Assembly: GCA_964448075.1 (NCBI GenBank)
Contig: CAYUUR010000001.1
Coordinates: forward strand, 1,785-65,784
From: an uncultured Candidatus Saccharibacteria bacterium
Lineage (GTDB): Bacteria > Patescibacteriota > Saccharimonadia > Saccharimonadales > CAYUUR01
DNA length: 64,000 bases
Reading direction: 5' to 3'
Shown here: positions 15,032 to 22,668 of the stretch, in pieces
How positions within the stretch are numbered: position 1 is the stretch's first letter
Layout: each line of letters begins with the position of its first letter
Translations under genes and position numbers: made by a program
Notes under the pieces: model-generated
Database searches by the model: none
What the model saw: only the letters and a program-made list of their open reading frames with translations
What the model was told of the DNA's origin: nothing

Positions 15032-15205
15032 AGATTAATTACTCCGTTTATTTATATCGACCTGGTGTTTTTTAAGGAGCGTTACCGACTAAAAAAGCCT
15101 TCAGCTTACGCCAAAGACTTTTTACTCGAAAACAAAATTAGATTTTGTGCCTCGGTAGCATTCTTAATCTGATTGCTCAGACGCTACTGTCTTTGGTAAC
15201 TAGAC
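15032..15205 (-). promoter_or_regulatory. rplJ 5' leader with internal attenuator hairpin (L10-leader-like)
   Basis: About 175-nt 5' UTR. On the minus strand, hairpin AGTCTTTGGC-GTAA-GCTGAAGGCT followed by T6 (15091-15119) lies about 60 nt before the ATG. Confidence 0.5.
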
Positions 15206-15208
15206 GCT

Positions 15209-15237
15209 ATTATACCGAAGTTAATCTTCAAAGTCAA
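15209..15237 (-). promoter_or_regulatory. sigma70-type promoter of rplJL
   Basis: Minus strand TTGACT (15232-15237), 17-nt spacer, TATAAT (15209-15214). Confidence 0.6.
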
Positions 15238-16664: not shown

Positions 16665-17045
16665 ATGACTAGCGAGAATAAGATGAGTGTATTTGAGAAA
16701 GCAGCAGTAGAAACGCCTGAGCCGAAGGATGAGCTACAGGAATACGCCGAGAAGGCGGCGCTTGGAGTATTTGAAAACTTTCAGGAGTTTGTAGACGGCC
16801 GTAGCAATGATTTCTCGGCTTACTTTGTACTTGGTAGCGATATACATGACAGGCAGAGAGAAATCTTTATGGGGTTGATAAGTGAATTCTATGAATCAAG
16901 CACTCAACTGCCTGAAGGAGCACTTGTGGTTACGGATAACGTAACACTTATGGCTTCATGTAATGCTTATATTGATCCTGATTCGCAAATAGCTATCCCA
17001 TACGACATCACGTACACCGCGACGCGGTTCGATTCAAATTTATAG
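16665..17045 (+). CDS. hypothetical acidic protein (126 aa)
   Basis: Only sizeable plus-strand ORF in this island; no clear SD; no recognisable domain. Confidence 0.4.
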   Translation: MTSENKMSVFEKAAVETPEPKDELQEYAEKAALGVFENFQEFVDGRSNDFSAYFVLGSDIHDRQREIFMGLISEFYESSTQLPEGALVVTDNVTLMASCNAYIDPDSQIAIPYDITYTATRFDSNL

Positions 17046-19334
17046 CTTTTTGAGCTTGTACTGGGTATAGCGCTCGGCGGCAAGCCGAGTTAACTCTTCG
17101 TCTTCACCTTTGTTTACAAACAGCATCGCGTCTGCCATCAGGGGATGCACTTTTGCTAGCTGTTCGTGCATTTGCAAGACGAGCTTACGGTAGCCTGGGT
17201 GCCCTTGTGGTGAGGTGCGGAGCTCATGAAAATGAAAAGCTTCCCGGGCATTGTACGTTATCTTCCAACGCATGCGATGCCCAAGCAACGTGGCGTACTG
17301 AGCCTCTAAACTATGCCCCTCAGCTTGCAGAAGACTGTACAGGGCAAGAGACAAATCAAAGCATTGTTCAAATGCATCACTCAGGCCGGCCTCTTCGATG
17401 AGTGCAGGTATTTCGTATCCGTAGCGTGGCGTCAGTTGTTGCCAGTTTAGATCGTCAACCATACGGTGTCGTTGCAGGTCGCGGAAGATCCCGTAGTCGC
17501 ACATGATGTCCCAGCTGTAGTGTGCCTTTTCGAACGCACGGCCAGGTTTGTGGCGGCGGTTGAGACGTTCACCTACTGACGCCTTGAACACAGCGTATTT
17601 CTTATCATAGCCCCATTCGCTTACTTCCTGTCTGATTTGCTCGAGCGGCAAACTACTATGCTCGTACAAAATATCCGCCACGATGTCTATCTCGTTGCGT
17701 GGCCAGTAGTCTGTCAGCGTGACCGGTTCTGATGGCGCACTATGCTGTTCAGGCAGCTGTTCATGAGCAATTGCTTTAACAGCCTGGTGCGTGTTAGCGC
17801 GATAGGCTATCAATGCACCGCCGCGATCAGGCCTGTCAGCCCTCTCCAAGAACGTAGGGATGACTTTGCGGGCCTCGTCGAGCAATTGTTGGCCAACAGT
17901 ACGTGCTTCTGGTAGCTCATCACTGAGCAGATGCATGATGAGCGACTCGAGCGCCTGCCCAGATGCATAAATACCCACTGTCGCTGTTGTTGCTACGGGC
18001 AGGACTGGTCGAACTGCATCACATGCTTGGGCTCGAACGGCTCCTTTCCAAGCTATATCGCGCTCCTTGGCAGGAACAGATGATTTATTGCCGATGTAGT
18101 CAGTTAGTTTGTGTACCATATAAGAATACAAATCAAATATCTGATCCATAGACTGAGCATACTGTTGAGCAACCTTTGCCGATAGTGAAGTCGGTGTAAA
18201 GTAGCGGTATTTACCATTGTCATCCTTGCGGTCAAAGTAAATATAGCGGGTTGATTGCTCGAGATATGCTGCCAATCTGCCCCATTCGAGTTTCTTTGTC
18301 AGGAGATTTGATGCGTTTTCAACGACAACATGTTGGCCTACCAGCTGTTGGACAGAATCATCACCGTATGCAGTGATAACTCGCTGCAATAGCTTTTCAT
18401 CTTTACCTGCAGATCCAATAAACTCATCCAATATTGTGACGCGCATATCATCAGCTCGGCGACTCAGCCGAGCCATGGCTGCCGCAATCGTCAGTGGCGT
18501 TAGGGTATCGTTAAATGCGTATACATTCCCACTCGTGTTGGTAACTGCAGTGTCTAGATATGCTTTGCCTTCGTCTGTGATGACGAAGTTACCTTGCTCT
18601 GATTTTGCTAGGTATGCAGGTGTATCCTCTGTTACGGGGCTGTTAACTGCAGGTTGCGATGCGCTTGATGATACAGAAACAGTATGGTCGATTTTGATCG
18701 TCTCACCAGGTTGGCCAAGTAAAGCGGCCACATGGTTCCATATCTCACGAGCAACTGTTTCGGCAGAACCTATAGCATAAACGACTGGCAAAGATCGGTT
18801 GTGTGCCTCCCAGAGGTACCCAGAACGCACTTTCTCTAGAAAATCAGCTTGGAGTGTGTCAAACCTTTCTGCCTGGTACCGTTCTGACATACGCTCTTGA
18901 AGCACTTTCACCGGTGCATCCAGTACGACTGTTAGATCGGGCTCCATGCCATCTATGGCGAAATTAATGATCTGATTAATTGTTTCATAGTCTTTGATGT
19001 CGCCGCGCGCATAATACTGGATTGCCAGGGTTGTAAGATAGCTACGGTCAACTAAGCAGTTAATGCCTTGATTGATGCTACGCTTGATACTCTCGAGCGA
19101 CTCCGAACGGGCTGCGTTATATAACAGTACCTCTGTGCGTGTGTTCATTGGGTAGCGTGGATCTTGTGTGAGGCTCCGGATGGCGCGAGCGGTGAGACTT
19201 GTTTGGCTATCTGGCTCACGAAAAACACGGACATCTAGTCCCTGCTTACGTAAATGATCAGCCAGGAGATTCAGTTGGGTTGATTTGCCGACTCCTTGGG
19301 GCCCTTCGATGACAATGTATTTACCCTTAGTCAT
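17040..19334 (-). CDS. fusion protein: thymidylate kinase (N-terminal) + long-form flavin-dependent thymidylate synthase ThyX
   Basis: 764 aa. N-terminus has IVIEGPQGVGKSTQ P-loop and LVDRSYLTTLAIQY (Tmk). The C-terminal ~550 aa carry ThyX-type motifs (LARLSRR; FRDLQRHRM...TPRY; FHELRTSPQGH), about twice the length of a single ThyX domain. Confidence 0.75.
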   Translation of the reverse strand: MTKGKYIVIEGPQGVGKSTQLNLLADHLRKQGLDVRVFREPDSQTSLTARAIRSLTQDPRYPMNTRTEVLLYNAARSESLESIKRSINQGINCLVDRSYLTTLAIQYYARGDIKDYETINQIINFAIDGMEPDLTVVLDAPVKVLQERMSERYQAERFDTLQADFLEKVRSGYLWEAHNRSLPVVYAIGSAETVAREIWNHVAALLGQPGETIKIDHTVSVSSSASQPAVNSPVTEDTPAYLAKSEQGNFVITDEGKAYLDTAVTNTSGNVYAFNDTLTPLTIAAAMARLSRRADDMRVTILDEFIGSAGKDEKLLQRVITAYGDDSVQQLVGQHVVVENASNLLTKKLEWGRLAAYLEQSTRYIYFDRKDDNGKYRYFTPTSLSAKVAQQYAQSMDQIFDLYSYMVHKLTDYIGNKSSVPAKERDIAWKGAVRAQACDAVRPVLPVATTATVGIYASGQALESLIMHLLSDELPEARTVGQQLLDEARKVIPTFLERADRPDRGGALIAYRANTHQAVKAIAHEQLPEQHSAPSEPVTLTDYWPRNEIDIVADILYEHSSLPLEQIRQEVSEWGYDKKYAVFKASVGERLNRRHKPGRAFEKAHYSWDIMCDYGIFRDLQRHRMVDDLNWQQLTPRYGYEIPALIEEAGLSDAFEQCFDLSLALYSLLQAEGHSLEAQYATLLGHRMRWKITYNAREAFHFHELRTSPQGHPGYRKLVLQMHEQLAKVHPLMADAMLFVNKGEDEELTRLAAERYTQYKLKKL

Positions 19335-20040
19335 ACGCCAATCCGTCTAGTTTTGTCGGCATGGAACGCTTGTCACGGTATGCTTGAGGTAACATCATAT
19401 CTGGTGACCAAAGTCGTTTTATATCCTCTATGTTTGTGCCCTGCTGGTACTTACCACTGAAGCCACTATCTCTACCAGAACCGTAATTTCCGGCAACTTC
19501 GCCAGTTTCATGGAATACCGCCTGCCCTATTCGTTCGCCTACAGGCAGCACAACCGTTTCGCGGTGGTTAAGGTTATATATCTCAAGCGTTAGGCGGTTG
19601 ATATAGCCTGGGTCGATCCATCCAGCGTCAAAGCATACGGCGATACCGTTTCTCCCCCAGCTTGAGCGGCTCTTAAGTTCACAGGCACCTGGCGGATTAA
19701 TGCCAAAGAATTCATGCGTATGCGCGAGGATGCGTTCGCCGGGCTTCAATGATATTACAGGATGGTCCGGCGGGATACTCGTTAGCAGCTTAAACCCGTT
19801 TAAGGCTGCCCAATCTTTGTGAGGCATCGCTTTATACGGACCGTCAAAGTACCGTTCAACATCTTCCTTATCAAAGGGATTGTAGATAACGCGCTCGTTA
19901 GTACGCTCAATCCGATAATAATGATAACCAAGCGTTACATCGAGACTGGCTTGTGAGACATGCCGGGGATTAAATGGTTGGCAAATAATGTGCCCCTCAT
20001 CGAGAGCTTGTCTGATCTGCGTATTGCTGTATACCCCCAT
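19327..20040 (-). CDS. dcd: dCTP deaminase family protein (possibly bifunctional dCTP deaminase/dUTPase)
   Basis: 237 aa; Dcd/Dut-fold sequence (SLDVTLG..., LTLEIYNLN); 8-nt overlap with the tmk::thyX start. Confidence 0.75.
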   Translation of the reverse strand: MGVYSNTQIRQALDEGHIICQPFNPRHVSQASLDVTLGYHYYRIERTNERVIYNPFDKEDVERYFDGPYKAMPHKDWAALNGFKLLTSIPPDHPVISLKPGERILAHTHEFFGINPPGACELKSRSSWGRNGIAVCFDAGWIDPGYINRLTLEIYNLNHRETVVLPVGERIGQAVFHETGEVAGNYGSGRDSGFSGKYQQGTNIEDIKRLWSPDMMLPQAYRDKRSMPTKLDGLAYD

Positions 20041-20154: not shown

Positions 20155-20183
20155 AAAAAGCACCACGTAGCGCGGTGCTTTTT
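20155..20183 (-). terminator. intrinsic terminator after rplA
   Basis: Stem GCACCGCG/CGTGGTGC (one G-U) flanked by A5 and T5 runs, 20 nt after the rplA stop. Confidence 0.7.
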
Positions 20184-20201: not shown

Positions 20202-21164
20202 CTATGAGTTAGCAATTTCGCTGACGGCAAGCTTCATGCTCGGACCCATCGCTGTAGTTACATATGCGGCTTTGACATATGAACCTTTAATAGAAGATGG
20301 CTTAGCGGCACGAATACTTGTGGCTACGGCCTGTGCATTCTCTAGGAGCTTTTCAGGGCCAAAACTAACTTTGCCGATTCCCAGGTGTACAATTCCCGTT
20401 GTATCGACACGGAACTCAACACGACCGGCCTGTGCATCCTTGACGCCTTTTACTACGTCGGTTGTGACAGTACCACTCTTTGGGTTTGGCATAAGTCCTT
20501 TAGGACCGAGCACACGAGCGTACTTACCAAGCTTACCCATCATCTGTGGTGTGGCAATAAGTACGTCAAAATCGAAGGTGCCTTTATCAAGTAGTTTTGT
20601 TACGGCTTCTTCGCCAGAAATATCTGCGCCGGCTTTTTTAGCTGCTGCAGCATCTTCAGAGTCAGCAAAAACAGCAATCTTCACTGTCTTGCCAGTTCCG
20701 GCTGGCAGTGCCACGATATCACGGATATTTTGATCTGCATGACGTGGGTCTACACCGAGGTTGATGTGGAGTTCTACGGTTGCATCAAACTTGACTGGGC
20801 TTGTTTTGGTAGCCAGTGTCAAAGCTTCTTTGAGCGTGTATTCTTTTTCAGCATCGACAAGCTTAGCAAGTTCACGGTACTTTTTGCTCTTGCGTTCTAG
20901 TTGGCTTTTGGGCGGGTTTTGCTTCTGTTTTGGCTTTGCCTCTGCGTCAGCTTCAGATTTCTCTGCTTTTCGTGCTTCTTTTGCTTCCTTTTCTTCAGCT
21001 TCTTTAGCGGCTTTAGCACTTCGCTTACCGGCTTTAGCGGTAGCTTTTTCTTCAGTAGCTTCTTCTACTGGTTCAGTAGTTTCAACGACGGTTTCCTCGA
21101 TGGGAGTTACTACGGTTTCTTTGATCTCTTCATTTTTAGTGGTTTTCTTCTTGGCTTCTGCCAT
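20202..21164 (-). CDS. rplA: 50S ribosomal protein L1 with ~90-aa Lys/Glu/Ala-rich N-terminal extension
   Basis: 320 aa; L1 core from about residue 92 (KKYRELAKLVD...); N-terminal low-complexity tail. Confidence 0.93.
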   Translation of the reverse strand: MAEAKKKTTKNEEIKETVVTPIEETVVETTEPVEEATEEKATAKAGKRSAKAAKEAEEKEAKEARKAEKSEADAEAKPKQKQNPPKSQLERKSKKYRELAKLVDAEKEYTLKEALTLATKTSPVKFDATVELHINLGVDPRHADQNIRDIVALPAGTGKTVKIAVFADSEDAAAAKKAGADISGEEAVTKLLDKGTFDFDVLIATPQMMGKLGKYARVLGPKGLMPNPKSGTVTTDVVKGVKDAQAGRVEFRVDTTGIVHLGIGKVSFGPEKLLENAQAVATSIRAAKPSSIKGSYVKAAYVTTAMGPSMKLAVSEIANS

Positions 21165-21226
21165 AACTATGCTCCTTTGTGGTGCGAACCCCGACTACAC
21201 GTGTGTGGTCAGGTCCCACAATCTTA
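21165..21226 (-). promoter_or_regulatory. rplA 5' leader / translation initiation region
   Basis: Minus-sense ...TTGTGGGACCTGACCACACACGTGTAGTCGGGGTTCGCACCACAAAGGAGCATAGTT-ATG; 5' TGTGG can pair with CCACA next to the SD. Confidence 0.4.
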
Positions 21227-21472
21227 TTAATTTATTACTTGTTCCTGAACGTTAATTGCTTGGGCGCTTTCAACCAAGCGTCCTACTGCATCTCGTATCT
21301 CTTGTAACCGTGCCACCGCCAGTGGGTCACCCCGCTCGGCTCGGTCAGTTATCTCTGCAATGCGTTGTCGATGCGTAGTAAGCGCATGTGTAGCGTTATC
21401 TAGCGTTGACATAAGATGATAGGTTCCACCATCTTCTCTGTCTACTACTGATTCGTGCGTGATATGTGTCAT
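21227..21472 (-). CDS. hypothetical small protein (81 aa) between rplK and rplA
   Basis: ATG start preceded by a copy of the rplA leader and SD; fills the spacer; no recognisable domain. Confidence 0.5.
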   Translation of the reverse strand: MTHITHESVVDREDGGTYHLMSTLDNATHALTTHRQRIAEITDRAERGDPLAVARLQEIRDAVGRLVESAQAINVQEQVIN

Positions 21473-21529
21473 ATACTTCCTTTGTGGTGCGAACGGCTGT
21501 TGTCAGCCTGCCACAGTTAAAAACGAATG
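21473..21529 (-). promoter_or_regulatory. duplicate of the rplA leader in front of the 81-aa ORF
   Basis: Minus-sense ...CTGTGGCAGGCTGACAACAGCCGTTCGCACCACAAAGGAAGTAT-ATG; 17-nt exact identity GTTCGCACCACAAAGGA with the rplA leader (21173-21189 vs 21478-21494). Confidence 0.45.
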
Positions 21530-21871
21530 TTATTTATCTGGGCTAAGTCTGTCTGATATCCCGTACTCCGCACAAAGTGCGTCCGCCGCGTCATCGTGAC
21601 CCAGAGCTCTCTGTTGCCAGATTTCACCAACTTTCCTGTCGAAGTCATCAATATATGTAGGTTCTAGTACGGGAACTTCGTGGTGAGAAATGAAGTAACC
21701 GAGACCAGTGGGGGTTCGAAGGACCTTAACGTCGCGTGTGCCCTCAGGATTGACTAACTCGATTGATGCGGCAAAGACATCTGGCTGTTGCATGTCGATG
21801 TCGACAACCGTATGAGGGTTTAGCTCAGTTAACTGAATTGTGCTGTCGTAAGGAGATAGACGTCCATCCAT
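21530..21871 (-). CDS. hypothetical small acidic protein (113 aa), translationally coupled to rplK
   Basis: ATG lies 3 nt after the rplK stop (TAA ATT ATG); no recognisable domain. Confidence 0.5.
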   Translation of the reverse strand: MDGRLSPYDSTIQLTELNPHTVVDIDMQQPDVFAASIELVNPEGTRDVKVLRTPTGLGYFISHHEVPVLEPTYIDDFDRKVGEIWQQRALGHDDAADALCAEYGISDRLSPDK

Positions 21872-21874
21872 AAT

Positions 21875-22306
21875 TTACTCTGCAATCTCCACGCCCATTG
21901 AACGCGCAGTGCCTGCAACCATCTTTTTGACCGCAGCGATGTCGTCGGTGTTCATGTCTTGTGCTTTGACTTCGGCAATTTCGGTCAGTTGCTGGTCGTT
22001 TAGTTTTTGGGGTAGCTTCTCCATGTTTGGCTTGCCGGAGCCTTTTTTGACACCGAGTTTTTCACGGATGAGTTCGTCGGTCGCGGCATTTACGTAGCGG
22101 AAGTCCATTGTACGGTCGTCGTAGATGGTTATGTGTGCAGTCAGCACACCTTTGAGGTCACGGGTTTGTTCATTGAAAGGATTGATAAAATCCATCATGT
22201 TGACACCGTACTGACCGAGGGTGCTACCAACCGGTGGCGCAGCACTGGCTTTGCCAGCTGGAATGCGCATCTTGAGGTTTGCTTTTACTTGTTTGGCTCC
22301 TGCCAT
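21875..22306 (-). CDS. rplK: 50S ribosomal protein L11
   Basis: 143 aa; LKMRIPAGKASAAPPVGSTLGQYGVN typical of L11. Confidence 0.96.
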   Translation of the reverse strand: MAGAKQVKANLKMRIPAGKASAAPPVGSTLGQYGVNMMDFINPFNEQTRDLKGVLTAHITIYDDRTMDFRYVNAATDELIREKLGVKKGSGKPNMEKLPQKLNDQQLTEIAEVKAQDMNTDDIAAVKKMVAGTARSMGVEIAE

Positions 22307-22374
22307 TATGTTCTCCTTGAATTGATTGCTCGTGCGGTGAAGCGTCCGCTAACGTGCGTAACTAAATAAGTATA

Positions 22375-22668
22375 CTACACTTCACCCCTGTTGTCTACTC
22401 TTATGCCAAGGATCTCATCTATCGTTATAAGATCCTCTCGCAATGATTCTACTTGCGCAGAGCTCACGGCACTAACACAGCCCAAAAGCAAGTTAACTTG
22501 TTGACGAACAAGCGCTCGTTCTTCAGCAGTAGTTCCTGCTTCATCCGCGTGATTGTCATCCCAAACAAGTTCACGATTGATACCTTCGATCGTCTCTAGA
22601 CCTTGCCGTAAACTAAAGCAAGCGCCATGCAGTCGTTCGAGTTTGTTTCGAGTCTGTTCTGACCCCAT
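22375..22668 (-). CDS. hypothetical small acidic protein (97 aa), translationally coupled to nusG
   Basis: ATG lies 3 nt after the nusG stop (TAA ACT ATG); fills the nusG-rplK spacer; no recognisable domain. Confidence 0.5.
   Translation of the reverse strand: MGSEQTRNKLERLHGACFSLRQGLETIEGINRELVWDDNHADEAGTTAEERALVRQQVNLLLGCVSAVSSAQVESLREDLITIDEILGIRVDNRGEV

What the first reader, a model, noticed from the sequence alone, without database searches (positions are those of the whole stretch)
21165..21529. The rplA leader and Shine-Dalgarno region is duplicated in front of an inserted 81-aa ORF
The 62-nt region before rplA and the 57-nt region before the 81-aa ORF share an exact 17-mer ending in the SD. 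It is GTTCGCACCACAAAGGA in minus sense (21173-21189 and 21478-21494). They also share a common architecture upstream: TGTGG...CTGAC.ACA...CCG...TTCGCACCACAAAGGA. In both, the 5' TGTGG can pair with CCACA next to the SD.

Two explanations fit:
- A regulatory leader (an L1 autoregulatory mimic is the obvious candidate) was copied, so the orphan is co-regulated with L1.
- The ORF arrived by an event that duplicated its target.

Either way it is a molecular scar that dates and explains the insertion.
Basis: seen in the sequence. Interest (0 to 1): 0.55.

Follow-up and report, generated by a model that had tools for sequence, protein, structure and literature searches.

The report
Duplicated L1-binding leader controls orphan gene
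In this Saccharibacteria genome the short RNA switch through which ribosomal protein L1 is known to throttle its own synthesis is present twice, once before the L1 gene and once before a small lineage-specific gene of unknown function inserted just upstream, so the orphan protein is probably tied to the ribosome-building feedback loop.

Summary
The 17-mer GTTCGCACCACAAAGGA occurs exactly twice in 64 kb, at 21173-21189 and 21478-21494 on the minus strand. Each copy is the 3' half of a ~45-nt element: P1 (UGUGG/CCACA), a 2-nt bulge, a P2 hairpin, a 7-nt loop, then the Shine-Dalgarno.

This element is the known L1-interacting (23S L1-stalk mimic) leader:
- All 18 Saccharibacteria relatives have one copy directly before rplA, and P2 covaries.
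- A covariance model built only from those 18 finds just the two window copies (27.4 and 26.5 bits; next best 11.6).
- The same model finds the sites before rplA and rplK in Firmicutes, matching the published dual-site pattern.

orf81 is a real, clade-restricted gene (dN/dS 0.13-0.22) encoding a predicted acidic helical hairpin with no known relatives. In four lineages with readable rplA leaders it lies between two leader copies; two more show a canonical copy B. Hairpin types swap between the two positions, which indicates gene conversion, so the 17-mer identity cannot date the insertion.

A second clade has leader-orf101-leader-rplA with an unrelated ORF.

In the window, copy B reads GGCAG instead of the near-invariant GGGAG. 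This is a segregating SNP.

Verdict: a new variant of a known regulator. L1 binding itself is untested.

The parts
21165..21222 (-). Leader copy A, the L1-type operator directly 5' of rplA. P1 is 21220-21216 with 21182-21178. The bulge is GA (21215-21214). P2 is 21213-21208 with 21195-21190 (the 'long' hairpin type). The 3' loop is GUUCGCA (21189-21183). The SD is AAGGAG (21177-21172).
   Evidence: Sequence. Model R2, built without window sequences, scores it 27.4 bits, E 3e-5. The fold gives the canonical P1 and P2.
21473..21517 (-). Leader copy B, the same operator directly 5' of orf81. P1 is 21515-21511 with 21487-21483. The bulge is CA (21510-21509), where the family has GA. P2 is GGCUG/CAGCC (21508-21504 with 21499-21495) with loop ACAA. 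The 3' loop is GUUCGCA (21494-21488). The SD is AAGGA (21482-21478).
   Evidence: Model R2 scores it 26.5 bits, E 5e-5. Homologous copies are present before orf81 homologues in L081, L082/83, L084/85, L212 and L213.
21173..21189 (-). Exact 17-mer, copy A: 3' loop + P1 3' strand + SD.
21478..21494 (-). Exact 17-mer, copy B.
21510..21510 (-). Segregating SNP in copy B. C (GGCAG) occurs in the window and in strains L086, L087 and L088. G (canonical GGGAG) occurs in strain L089 and in all other lineages.
   Evidence: The G allele scores 33.8 bits against 26.6 for the C allele.
21227..21472 (-). orf81, a clade-restricted protein-coding gene. The product is acidic (pI 5.4) and predicted to be a two-helix hairpin. 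Function unknown.
   Evidence: Homologues at 71-76% identity. dN/dS 0.13-0.22. AF2 pLDDT 82.4. No family or fold match.
20202..21164 (-). rplA (ribosomal protein L1, 320 aa, with a ~95-aa Lys/Glu/Ala-rich N-terminal extension).
   Evidence: Pfam Ribosomal_L1, E 8e-60.
21530..21871 (-). orf113, a second clade-restricted gene. It starts 4 nt after the rplK stop codon and has no L1-type leader of its own.
   Evidence: Homologues at 66-77% identity. dN/dS 0.07-0.11. No CM hit upstream.
21875..22306 (-). rplK (ribosomal protein L11). No L1-type site upstream.
   Evidence: Pfam. CM searches.
22369..22397 (-). Promoter-like site (TAGACA-17-TATACT) upstream of rplK, the likely start of the rplK-orf113-orf81-rplA transcript.
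   Evidence: The region is nearly invariant between lineages.
20160..20173 (-). Terminator-like hairpin plus T-run downstream of rplA. No minus-strand terminator lies between rplK and rplA.

Best explanation
Both repeats are copies of the L1-binding translational operator, an mRNA mimic of the 23S rRNA L1-stalk junction. In Saccharibacteria this operator sits immediately 5' of the rplA Shine-Dalgarno sequence.

Shown by comparison:
- The element has the family architecture: P1, a GA bulge, a variable P2 hairpin, a 7-nt loop ending in A, the P1 return strand, then the SD.
- It is conserved with covariation.
- It is the same motif that precedes rplA and rplK in Firmicutes, where L1 binding has been measured.

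Inferred mechanism:
- When L1 exceeds free 23S rRNA, it binds the operator and blocks initiation at the adjacent SD.
- Copy A autoregulates rplA.
- Copy B puts orf81, a clade-specific small acidic helical protein, under the same L1 feedback, so orf81 is made in step with ribosome assembly.

The pair arose once in the ancestor of this clade. It has been kept by selection, shown by compensatory P2 changes. Gene conversion between the two copies repeatedly homogenises them, which is why the window copies share an exact 17-mer that includes a lineage-specific C.

In the window strain a recent G-to-C change at the bulge G of copy B probably weakens L1 binding and so partly derepresses orf81.

My probabilities: about 0.9 that both copies belong to the L1-leader family, and about 0.65 that L1 really represses orf81 translation in this clade.
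For: 1. All 18 Saccharibacteria relatives carry UGUGG-GA-G[hairpin]C-GYUNNYA-CCACA-(G)AAAGGA just before the rplA AUG.
2. P2 covaries. All 4 pairs show double changes; covariation score is 0.388 against 0.124 in shuffles (0/500 reach it); slid controls give 0.18 or less.
3. Model R2, built from those 18 sequences only, finds exactly two significant sites in the 64-kb window, copies A and B (27.4 and 26.5 bits). The next best hit is 11.6 bits.
4. R2 also hits directly upstream of rplA, and about 480 nt further up before rplK, in many Firmicutes and Bacteroidota loci. Those sequences read GUGGGAG-hairpin-CG-N5-6-ACCAC-SD.
5. In metagenome loci, 57 hits precede L1 and 38 precede L11. This is the distribution published for the L1-interacting RNA, with nM L1 binding shown for both Geobacillus sites (PMC3616713; review PMC10931766).
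6. The E. coli 23S L1-stalk sequence is GGUGG-GA-GGCU...AGCC-GACCUUGAAAUA-CCACC. It was confirmed 100% identical to annotated 23S rRNA. It has the same order of elements and shares GUGGGAGGCU with the operator (window copy B reads GUGGCAGGCU).
7. orf81 homologues occur in L081, L082/83, L084/85, L212 and L213, in the same gene order wherever flanking genes are on the contig. A leader copy lies before orf81 in every case and a second before rplA wherever that region is present. P2 is 100% paired with compensatory changes in these loci, although dS between four of these lineages is about 1.1-1.4.
8. orf81 is under purifying selection (dN/dS 0.13-0.22).
9. Gene conversion: the window and L081 have A 'long' and B 'short' hairpins, L082 has both short, and L084 has both long. 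L082's A copy matches the window's B copy at 35 of 37 positions. The loop C (GUUCGCA) is shared by both window copies and occurs in none of the 18 outgroups.
10. Recurrence: L145 and L211 (72% identical ORFs) have leader-orf101-leader-rplA with an ORF unrelated to orf81. L128 has rplK-orf77-leader-unrelated ORF.
Against: - No binding or expression data exist for any Saccharibacteria L1 or leader. The regulatory step is inferred from family membership.
- In this genome, copy B has C instead of the bulge G. That G is present in 18 of 18 relatives, in all other copy-B sequences, and in 37 of 38 unbiased sites from other phyla. The change costs 7.2 bits. The window's copy B may therefore bind L1 poorly or not at all.
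- Folding energies are not better than shuffles. For copy B the MFE uses an alternative P1 (UGUGG with UCGCA of the loop).
- R2 does not detect the E. coli 23S L1 stalk, so the rRNA mimicry rests on direct sequence comparison.
- orf81 is acidic and looks nothing like a ribosomal protein. There is no independent reason to link it to ribosomes.
- Other ORFs inserted between rplK and rplA do without an L1 leader: orf113 here, and those in L001-L003. Leader control is therefore not a general requirement of the location.
Confidence: 0.7

Rival explanations
1. Copy B works mainly in cis for rplA. On this view the two operators form a dual site, like the rplK and rplA sites of Firmicutes, Thermus and Thermotoga. 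Repressing translation of the ORF immediately upstream stops ribosomes that terminate 5 nt before copy A from unfolding it or displacing L1. Control of orf81 itself would be incidental.
For: - Dual L1 sites within one operon are documented (PMC3616713; PMC10931766).
- The orf81 stop codon (21229-21227) lies 6 nt before P1 of copy A. The orf101 stop in L145 lies 7 nt before its downstream leader.
- No terminator or convincing promoter separates the genes.
Against: - In the simplest relatives (for example L005) the rplK stop also abuts the single leader, with no L1-type site before rplK.
- In L001-L003 an unregulated ORF sits directly upstream of the single leader.
- Upstream translation is therefore tolerated without a second operator.
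- This view does not exclude real co-regulation of orf81.
Confidence: 0.15
2. Copy B is a neutral scar. The repeat would be a by-product of the event that created or inserted orf81: a tandem duplication of the leader region, or an insertion that duplicated its target. Copy B would then provide only an SD, with no L1-dependent role.
For: - The geometry is direct repeat-ORF-direct repeat.
- The window allele of copy B has lost the conserved bulge G.
- The region is a hotspot of ORF gain and loss in Saccharibacteria.
Against: - Copy B retains P1, the loop and a fully paired P2 through compensatory changes in six lineages, separated by dS about 1.1-1.4 where measured.
- The GGGAG allele is ancestral and still segregating.
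- The same arrangement is conserved in a second clade with a different ORF.
- No transposase, integrase or other mobile-element signature is present.
- orf81 shows no residual similarity to the rplA 5' region in any frame.
Confidence: 0.1
3. The element is recognised by something other than L1, or the repeat is a generic translation-initiation consensus or a chance match. Candidates would be an RNase, another RNA-binding protein, or the structure acting alone as a translational enhancer or standby site.
For: - There is no direct evidence of L1 binding in this phylum.
- Rfam has no model that matches.
Against: - Only two sites exist in 64 kb, so it is not a generic TIR.
- Across phyla the motif tracks rplA and rplK specifically: 95 of 101 classified hits, and 4 of the remaining 6 are truncated or mis-started L1 or L11 genes.
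- It copies the 23S L1-stalk sequence.
- The same motif binds L1 in Geobacillus (PMC3616713).
Confidence: 0.05

Closest known systems
L1-interacting RNA, the autoregulatory operator of the L11 (rplKA) operon (E. coli, Methanococcus; family defined across phyla by Fu et al. 2013, PMC3616713)
   Same: - A stem interrupted by an internal bulge with a G-A pair plus an unpaired A, flanked by G-C pairs.
- It mimics the 23S L1 stalk.
- It lies next to the SD.
- In Actinobacteria, Cyanobacteria and Chloroflexi it lies directly before rplA, as in Saccharibacteria here.
- My model from the Saccharibacteria leaders cross-detects the Firmicutes sites.
   Different: - It had not been described for Saccharibacteria or CPR in the literature I could search.
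- The family is absent from Rfam.
- The second copy precedes a non-ribosomal orphan ORF, not rplK.
Dual L1 sites in Firmicutes, Thermus and Thermotoga (one before rplK, one before rplA)
   Same: Two L1 operators sit on one rplK-rplA transcript, each next to the SD of a cistron (PMC3616713; PMC10931766). I recovered this arrangement in many loci.
   Different: - Here rplK has no L1-type site.
- The extra operator serves an inserted 81-aa gene.
- The two copies show concerted evolution by gene conversion, which has not been reported for the rplK and rplA sites.
23S rRNA L1 stalk (H76-H78), the primary L1 binding site
   Same: The order of elements is the same: GGUGG-GA-GGCU...AGCC-G...A-CCACC in E. 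coli 23S, against UGUGG-GA-G...C-GYUNNYA-CCACA in the leaders.
   Different: - In the leaders a short hairpin replaces the H78 arm, and the 3' joining strand is 7 nt instead of 12.
- The leader model does not score the rRNA site.
Ribosomal proteins that repress non-ribosomal mRNAs (uL4 on tnaA, bL9 on exsA; called rare in PMC10931766)
   Same: An r-protein operator predicted to control a gene that is not a recognisable ribosomal protein.
   Different: - Those cases use sites unlike the rRNA site, or act in trans on distant genes.
- Here a bona fide copy of the autoregulatory operator sits inside the r-protein operon itself.
Non-ribosomal ORF embedded in an r-protein operon, for example rplU-ysxB(prp)-rpmA in Firmicutes (recalled from memory, not tested)
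   Same: A small gene of initially unknown function sits between two r-protein genes and shares their regulation. In that case it proved to be ribosome-related.
   Different: - There is no operator duplication there.
- Any ribosome link for orf81 is pure conjecture.

Membership tests
L1-interacting RNA (L1 autoregulatory operator; Fu et al. 2013) | A 6-12-bp stem interrupted by an internal bulge, supported by covariation | tested here: met
   P1 (4-5 bp) plus P2 (4-6 bp) around an asymmetric bulge. In P2, 4 of 4 pairs show compensatory changes; no shuffle (0/500) reaches the observed covariation score. Both window copies fit.
L1-interacting RNA (L1 autoregulatory operator; Fu et al. 2013) | A bulge with a potential G-A pair followed by an unpaired A (GGGAG on the 5' side, conserved A closing the 3' loop) | tested here: inconclusive
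   Copy A has GGGAC with a C-G-flipped closing pair, as in relative L015, so the feature is met. Window copy B has GGCAG, so the G is lost and the feature is not met in this strain. It is met in strain L089 and in all other lineages.
L1-interacting RNA (L1 autoregulatory operator; Fu et al. 2013) | Located in the 5' region of rplA or rplK, next to the ribosome-binding site | tested here: inconclusive
   Copy A is met: P1 ends 1 nt before the rplA SD. Copy B has the same spacing to an SD, but the gene is orf81, not rplA or rplK.
L1-interacting RNA (L1 autoregulatory operator; Fu et al. 2013) | Detectable homology with established members | tested here: met
   Rfam has no model. Model R2, built from Saccharibacteria only, hits the rplA and rplK upstream sites of Firmicutes and Bacteroidota and of metagenome contigs (57 before L1, 38 before L11).
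L1-interacting RNA (L1 autoregulatory operator; Fu et al. 2013) | Sequence and structure mimicry of the 23S rRNA L1-binding site | tested here: met
   Direct comparison with the E. coli 23S L1 stalk, verified as annotated 23S rRNA. The elements are in the same order, and GUGGGAGGCU is shared. The CM did not score the rRNA. The organism's own 23S is not in the window.
L1-interacting RNA (L1 autoregulatory operator; Fu et al. 2013) | Specific binding of L1 and L1-dependent translational repression | not testable with these tools
   Requires filter-binding or EMSA and reporter assays.
Insertion scar / target-site duplication of a mobile element | Direct repeats flanking an inserted segment that carries mobility genes or ends | tested here: not met
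   The repeats do flank orf81. However, there is no transposase, integrase or phage family, and the reading of the region found no inverted ends.
Insertion scar / target-site duplication of a mobile element | Repeats decay neutrally after the event | tested here: not met
   Structure and key bases are conserved, with compensatory changes, across lineages separated by dS about 1.1-1.4.

The most novel reading that the evidence does not exclude
Saccharibacteria may have a variable gene slot immediately upstream of rplA that is bracketed by two L1 operators. Different lineages hold unrelated orphan proteins there: orf81 here, orf101 in L145/L211, and another ORF in L128. The repeated operators would act as a portable L1-controlled initiation region and also as homology arms for cassette gain, loss and exchange. 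The conversion between copies and the mosaic orf81 in L213 are consistent with this. The proteins in the slot would be lineage-specific partners of the ribosome or the L1 stalk, or genes born de novo from a duplicated initiation region.
Probability: 0.15. Interest if true: 0.7.

Novelty: new variant of a known kind. Interest (0 to 1): 0.5.

Why it matters
The L1 operator is one of the oldest and most widespread r-protein feedback elements. It is missing from Rfam, and I found no description of it for the Candidate Phyla Radiation.

Three things are shown here:
- Saccharibacteria use the rplA-proximal form of the operator.
- The operator has been duplicated to capture a non-ribosomal orphan gene, at least twice independently with unrelated ORFs.
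- The copies evolve in concert.

An r-protein operator controlling a non-ribosomal gene is considered rare. It gives a concrete, testable functional hint for proteins that otherwise have no annotation at all: they should be expressed in step with ribosome assembly.

The segregating G/C polymorphism at the key bulge base is a natural mutant pair for binding assays.

The covariance model built here could also be used to annotate L1 leaders in CPR genomes.

Tried and rejected
- **Rfam.** Searches at gathering thresholds (whole window) and at E up to 10 (21100-22450) found no family at either leader. The only relevant hit was L10_leader at 15081-15214.
- **Single-sequence folding.** Stabilities are not significant.
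- **Known families and folds.** orf81, orf113 and orf97 were searched against Pfam, NCBIfam, PHROGs and PADLOC; orf81 and orf113 were also searched against PDB sequences. Nothing was found.
- **Profile search of 1.84 billion representatives with orf81.** It returned only its own cluster plus long repetitive coiled-coil proteins, which I regard as compositional matches.
- **AF2 of orf81.** The model is a helical hairpin with no PDB fold match.
- **AF2 of orf113.** Confidence was too low (pLDDT 48.6) to use.
- **orf81 as a diverged duplicate of the rplA 5' extension.** No similarity in any frame (z at or below 0). The same holds for orf101 in L145.
- **Homology among the inserted ORFs of different lineages.** Not supported (z below 3).
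- **orf81 homologues in JGI metagenome contigs.** None found.
- **Leader model against E. coli 23S.** No hit.
- **An L1-type site before rplK in Saccharibacteria.** None in the window or in 18 relatives.
- **'Insulation' rationale.** The idea that an upstream translated ORF must also be L1-repressed was considered and down-weighted. Relatives tolerate unregulated ORFs, or rplK itself, directly upstream of a single leader.
Full report
**What is in the window**

All genes in this region are on the minus strand:
- secE (23603-23211)
- nusG (23214-22672)
- a 97-aa ORF (22668-22375)
- rplK, encoding L11 (22306-21875)
- a 113-aa ORF (21871-21530), which starts 4 nt after the rplK stop
- an 81-aa ORF (21472-21227)
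- rplA, encoding L1 (21164-20202), 320 aa with a Lys/Glu/Ala-rich N-terminal extension of about 95 aa

The closest L1 relatives are all Candidatus Saccharibacteria at 53-67% identity, so the window comes from a Saccharibacteria (TM7) genome.

A promoter-like site precedes rplK and a terminator-like hairpin follows rplA. No minus-strand terminator lies in between. One rplK-orf113-orf81-rplA transcript is therefore likely, though this is inferred.

GTTCGCACCACAAAGGA occurs exactly twice, at 21189-21173 and 21494-21478. Chance expectation is well below one.

Each copy is the 3' half of a ~45-nt element that fills the intergenic spacer:
- Copy A: UGUGG-GA-CCUGAC[CACACACGUGUA]GUCGGG-GUUCGCA-CCACA-AAGGAG-N7-AUG(rplA)
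- Copy B: UGUGG-CA-GGCUG[ACAA]CAGCC-GUUCGCA-CCACA-AAGGA-N5-AUG(orf81)

**What the element is**

All 18 Saccharibacteria species representatives recovered through L1 carry one element of the same design directly before the rplA start. The design is (U)GUGG-GA-G[hairpin]C-G-Y-U-N-N-Y-A-CCAC(A/G)-(G)AAAGGA.

The P2 hairpin differs in sequence in nearly every species but stays paired:
- All four modelled P2 pairs show changes on both sides.
- The covariation score is 0.388 against 0.124 in shuffles (0/500 reach it).
- Slid controls give 0.18 or less.

P1 is almost invariant. One relative (L009) has a U-A to C-G compensatory change.

I built a covariance model from the 18 relatives only (R2) and scanned the whole window with filters off. 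It finds copy A (27.4 bits, E 3e-5) and copy B (26.5 bits, E 5e-5) and nothing else; the next hit scores 11.6 bits.

The repeat is therefore neither a generic initiation-region consensus nor a chance match. Both copies are members of the rplA-leader family.

**Link to the known L1 operator**

The same model, which contains no Firmicutes sequence, hits immediately upstream of rplA in dozens of Clostridia, Bacilli and Bacteroidota loci. In many of them it also hits a second site before rplK.

Those sites read GUGGGAG-hairpin-CG-N5-6-ACCAC followed by the SD.

In a further 80 metagenome loci found with a DNA pattern, 57 model hits precede L1 and 38 precede L11.

This matches what Fu et al. 2013 (PMC3616713) reported for the L1-interacting RNA:
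- A 6-12-bp stem with an internal bulge containing a G-A pair and an unpaired A.
- A location before rplA in Actinobacteria, Cyanobacteria and Chloroflexi.
- A location before rplK in Proteobacteria.
- Sites before both genes in more than 40% of Firmicutes, where both Geobacillus sites bound L1 with Kd of 25-50 nM and G-to-A mutants did not.

A 2024 review (PMC10931766) summarises the mechanism. The mRNA site mimics the 23S H76-H78 site, binds L1 more weakly than rRNA does, and represses translation when L1 is in excess.

I checked the mimicry against E. coli 23S. The sequence GGUGG-GA-GGCU...AGCC-GACCUUGAAAUA-CCACC is 100% identical to annotated 23S rRNA. It has the same order of elements as the leaders and shares GUGGGAGGCU with them. 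The leader model itself does not score the rRNA site, so this point rests on direct comparison.

Rfam 15 contains no family that matches the leaders.

**orf81 is a real gene and is always flanked by two operators**

orf81 has homologues at 71-76% identity, restricted to a narrow clade. A profile search of 1.84 billion representatives adds nothing credible.

The genomic contexts come:
- L081 and L084 show the full gene order nusG, variable ORF, rplK, orf113, orf81, and L081 continues into rplA.
- The shorter contigs (L082/83, L085, L212, L213) show the parts of that order they contain.

Each of these contigs has an operator copy before orf81. Each also has a second copy before rplA wherever that region is on the contig.

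Pairwise dS between four of these lineages (window, L081, L082, L084) is about 1.1-1.4, apart from the close pair L082/L084 at 0.32. dN/dS is as follows:

| Gene | dN/dS |
|---|---|
| orf81 | 0.13-0.22 |
| orf113 | 0.07-0.11 |
| rplK, rplA, nusG | 0.005-0.07 |

Both ORFs are therefore under purifying selection.

Despite this divergence, copy B keeps P1, the loop and the SD. Its P2 changes in compensatory fashion:
- GGCUG/CAGCC (window)
- GGUU/AACC (L081)
- GGCUU/AAGUC (L082)
- a long CCCGGC.../...GCCGGG form (L084)

In the alignment of all copies from duplicated loci, P2 is 100% paired, with double changes at all four pairs.

This is the signature of a selected RNA structure, not of a decaying scar.

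**Concerted evolution of the two copies**

Two hairpin types exist, 'long' (C-G closing pair, CCACACNCGUGUA loop) and 'short' (G-C closing pair). They occupy the two positions as follows:

| Genome | Copy A (before rplA) | Copy B (before orf81) |
|---|---|---|
| Window | long | short |
| L081 | long | short |
| L082 | short | short |
| L084 | long | long |
| L213 | long | long |

L082's copy A matches the window's copy B at 35 of 37 positions.

Both window copies share the loop variant GUUCGCA. Its fourth base, C, is not seen in any of the 18 outgroups, which have U or A there.

The simplest reading is repeated gene conversion between the two copies.

L213 also carries a mosaic orf81, with an N-terminus like L084 and a C-terminus like the window. 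This shows recombination between lineages.

The exact 17-mer therefore marks a recent conversion tract and cannot date the insertion.

**The window's own copy B is a variant**

It reads GGCAG where the family has GGGAG. The G is present in:
- 18 of 18 relatives
- every other copy B
- 37 of 38 unbiased sites from other phyla

By the published description, this G is the base that forms the G-A pair of the bulge. That assignment is my inference.

Four near-identical strains from independent metagenomes were recovered. Three carry C, as the window does, and one (L089) carries G. L089 differs from the window at only 2 positions in 1.9 kb, and this is one of them.

The G allele scores 7.2 bits higher.

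So a recent, segregating substitution has hit the key base of copy B. I predict weaker L1 binding and partial derepression of orf81 in this strain. This is untested.

**What orf81 might be**

Pfam, NCBIfam, PHROGs, PADLOC and PDB sequence searches find nothing.

AlphaFold predicts two long antiparallel helices (pLDDT 82.4), with no meaningful PDB fold match. The protein is acidic (pI 5.4).

The only functional clue is its operator.

orf113 is likewise an orphan, and its model was too poor to use.

**The arrangement recurs**

Among the metagenome loci, L145 has leader, 101-aa acidic ORF, leader, rplA.

Its 72%-identical homologue in L211 has the same layout, again with a different but fully paired P2 in the upstream copy.

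L128, a neighbour of the window clade, has rplK, orf77, leader, then an unrelated ORF that runs off the contig.

These ORFs show no significant similarity to orf81, to orf113, to each other, or to the 5' part of rplA in any frame.

In contrast, none of the 18 species representatives has a second copy, although several hold unrelated ORFs between rplK and the single leader.

So an ORF in this region does not need an operator, but operator-bearing orphan ORFs have arisen at least twice.

**How it most likely works**

Family membership of both copies is shown. The mechanism is inferred:
- L1 in excess over 23S rRNA binds the operator, whose P1 return strand abuts the SD, and blocks initiation.
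- Copy A gives classical autoregulation of rplA.
- Copy B subjects orf81 to the same feedback.

A cis role of copy B for rplA (a dual operator) is a reasonable rival, but the relatives show it is not required.

How the duplication arose remains open. It could have been a tandem duplication of the initiation region or the capture of an ORF between duplicated leaders. I found no trace of a mobile element and no trace of rplA-derived sequence in orf81.

**Verdict**

The 'scar that dates the insertion' reading is not supported.

This is a new variant of a well-known regulator, not a new kind of system. Interest is moderate for four reasons:
- It extends the L1 operator to Saccharibacteria.
- It shows a rare predicted case of an r-protein operator recruited to non-ribosomal orphan genes.
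- It documents concerted evolution of the copies.
- It offers a natural G/C allele pair for a direct test.

Noticed in passing
window 22306-22400 (minus strand); L081 2052-2168; L084 2046-2162: The ~95 nt upstream of rplK are almost invariant among lineages separated by dS about 0.8-1.3 (rplK). The region holds a promoter-like TAGACA-17-TATACT plus the 5'UTR. A GUUACGCA(C/U) motif just after a -10 box recurs upstream of rplK in most of the more distant Saccharibacteria. It is not an L1-type site by my model, and its role is unexplained.
   Followed up: partly
window 22375-22668 (orf97); L081 1777-2097; L084 1741-2091; L212 80-472: The slot between nusG and rplK holds non-homologous ORFs (97, 106, 116 and 130 aa) in otherwise closely related genomes. 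In the three that were aligned (window, L081, L084), only the last 7 codons (V/L-DNRGEV) are shared, and these overlap the conserved rplK promoter.
   Followed up: partly
L001-L018 (nusG-rplK-rplA region): Spacing between nusG, rplK and rplA varies from 24 to about 2300 nt among species, with lineage-specific ORFs in the gaps. rplK is inverted relative to rplA in L008, L014 and L017. Many rplA genes have their own TATAAT-type promoter just before the leader. The cluster is a hotspot of rearrangement in Saccharibacteria.
   Followed up: partly
L145 967-1372; L211 1-410; L128 201-253: A second clade has leader-orf101-leader-rplA with an ORF unrelated to orf81. A third contig has an L1-type leader before yet another unrelated ORF downstream of rplK-orf77.
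   Followed up: yes
L213 677-922: The orf81 homologue is a mosaic. The N-terminal half resembles the L084 lineage, and the C-terminal 35 residues are nearly identical to the window protein. This suggests recombination between lineages.
   Followed up: no
window 20202-21164: L1 carries a Lys/Glu/Ala-rich N-terminal extension of about 95 aa that other bacterial L1 proteins lack. It is present in all the Saccharibacteria relatives recovered.
   Followed up: no
window 15081-15214 (minus strand): There is an Rfam L10_leader hit (58.2 bits). The rplJL unit is thus separated from rplKA by about 5 kb that holds dcd (19327-20040) and a 764-aa thymidylate kinase-ThyX fusion (17040-19334).
   Followed up: no
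window 21873: Strain L086 differs from the window by a single base (T to A) in the 3-nt spacer between the rplK stop and the orf113 start.
   Followed up: no
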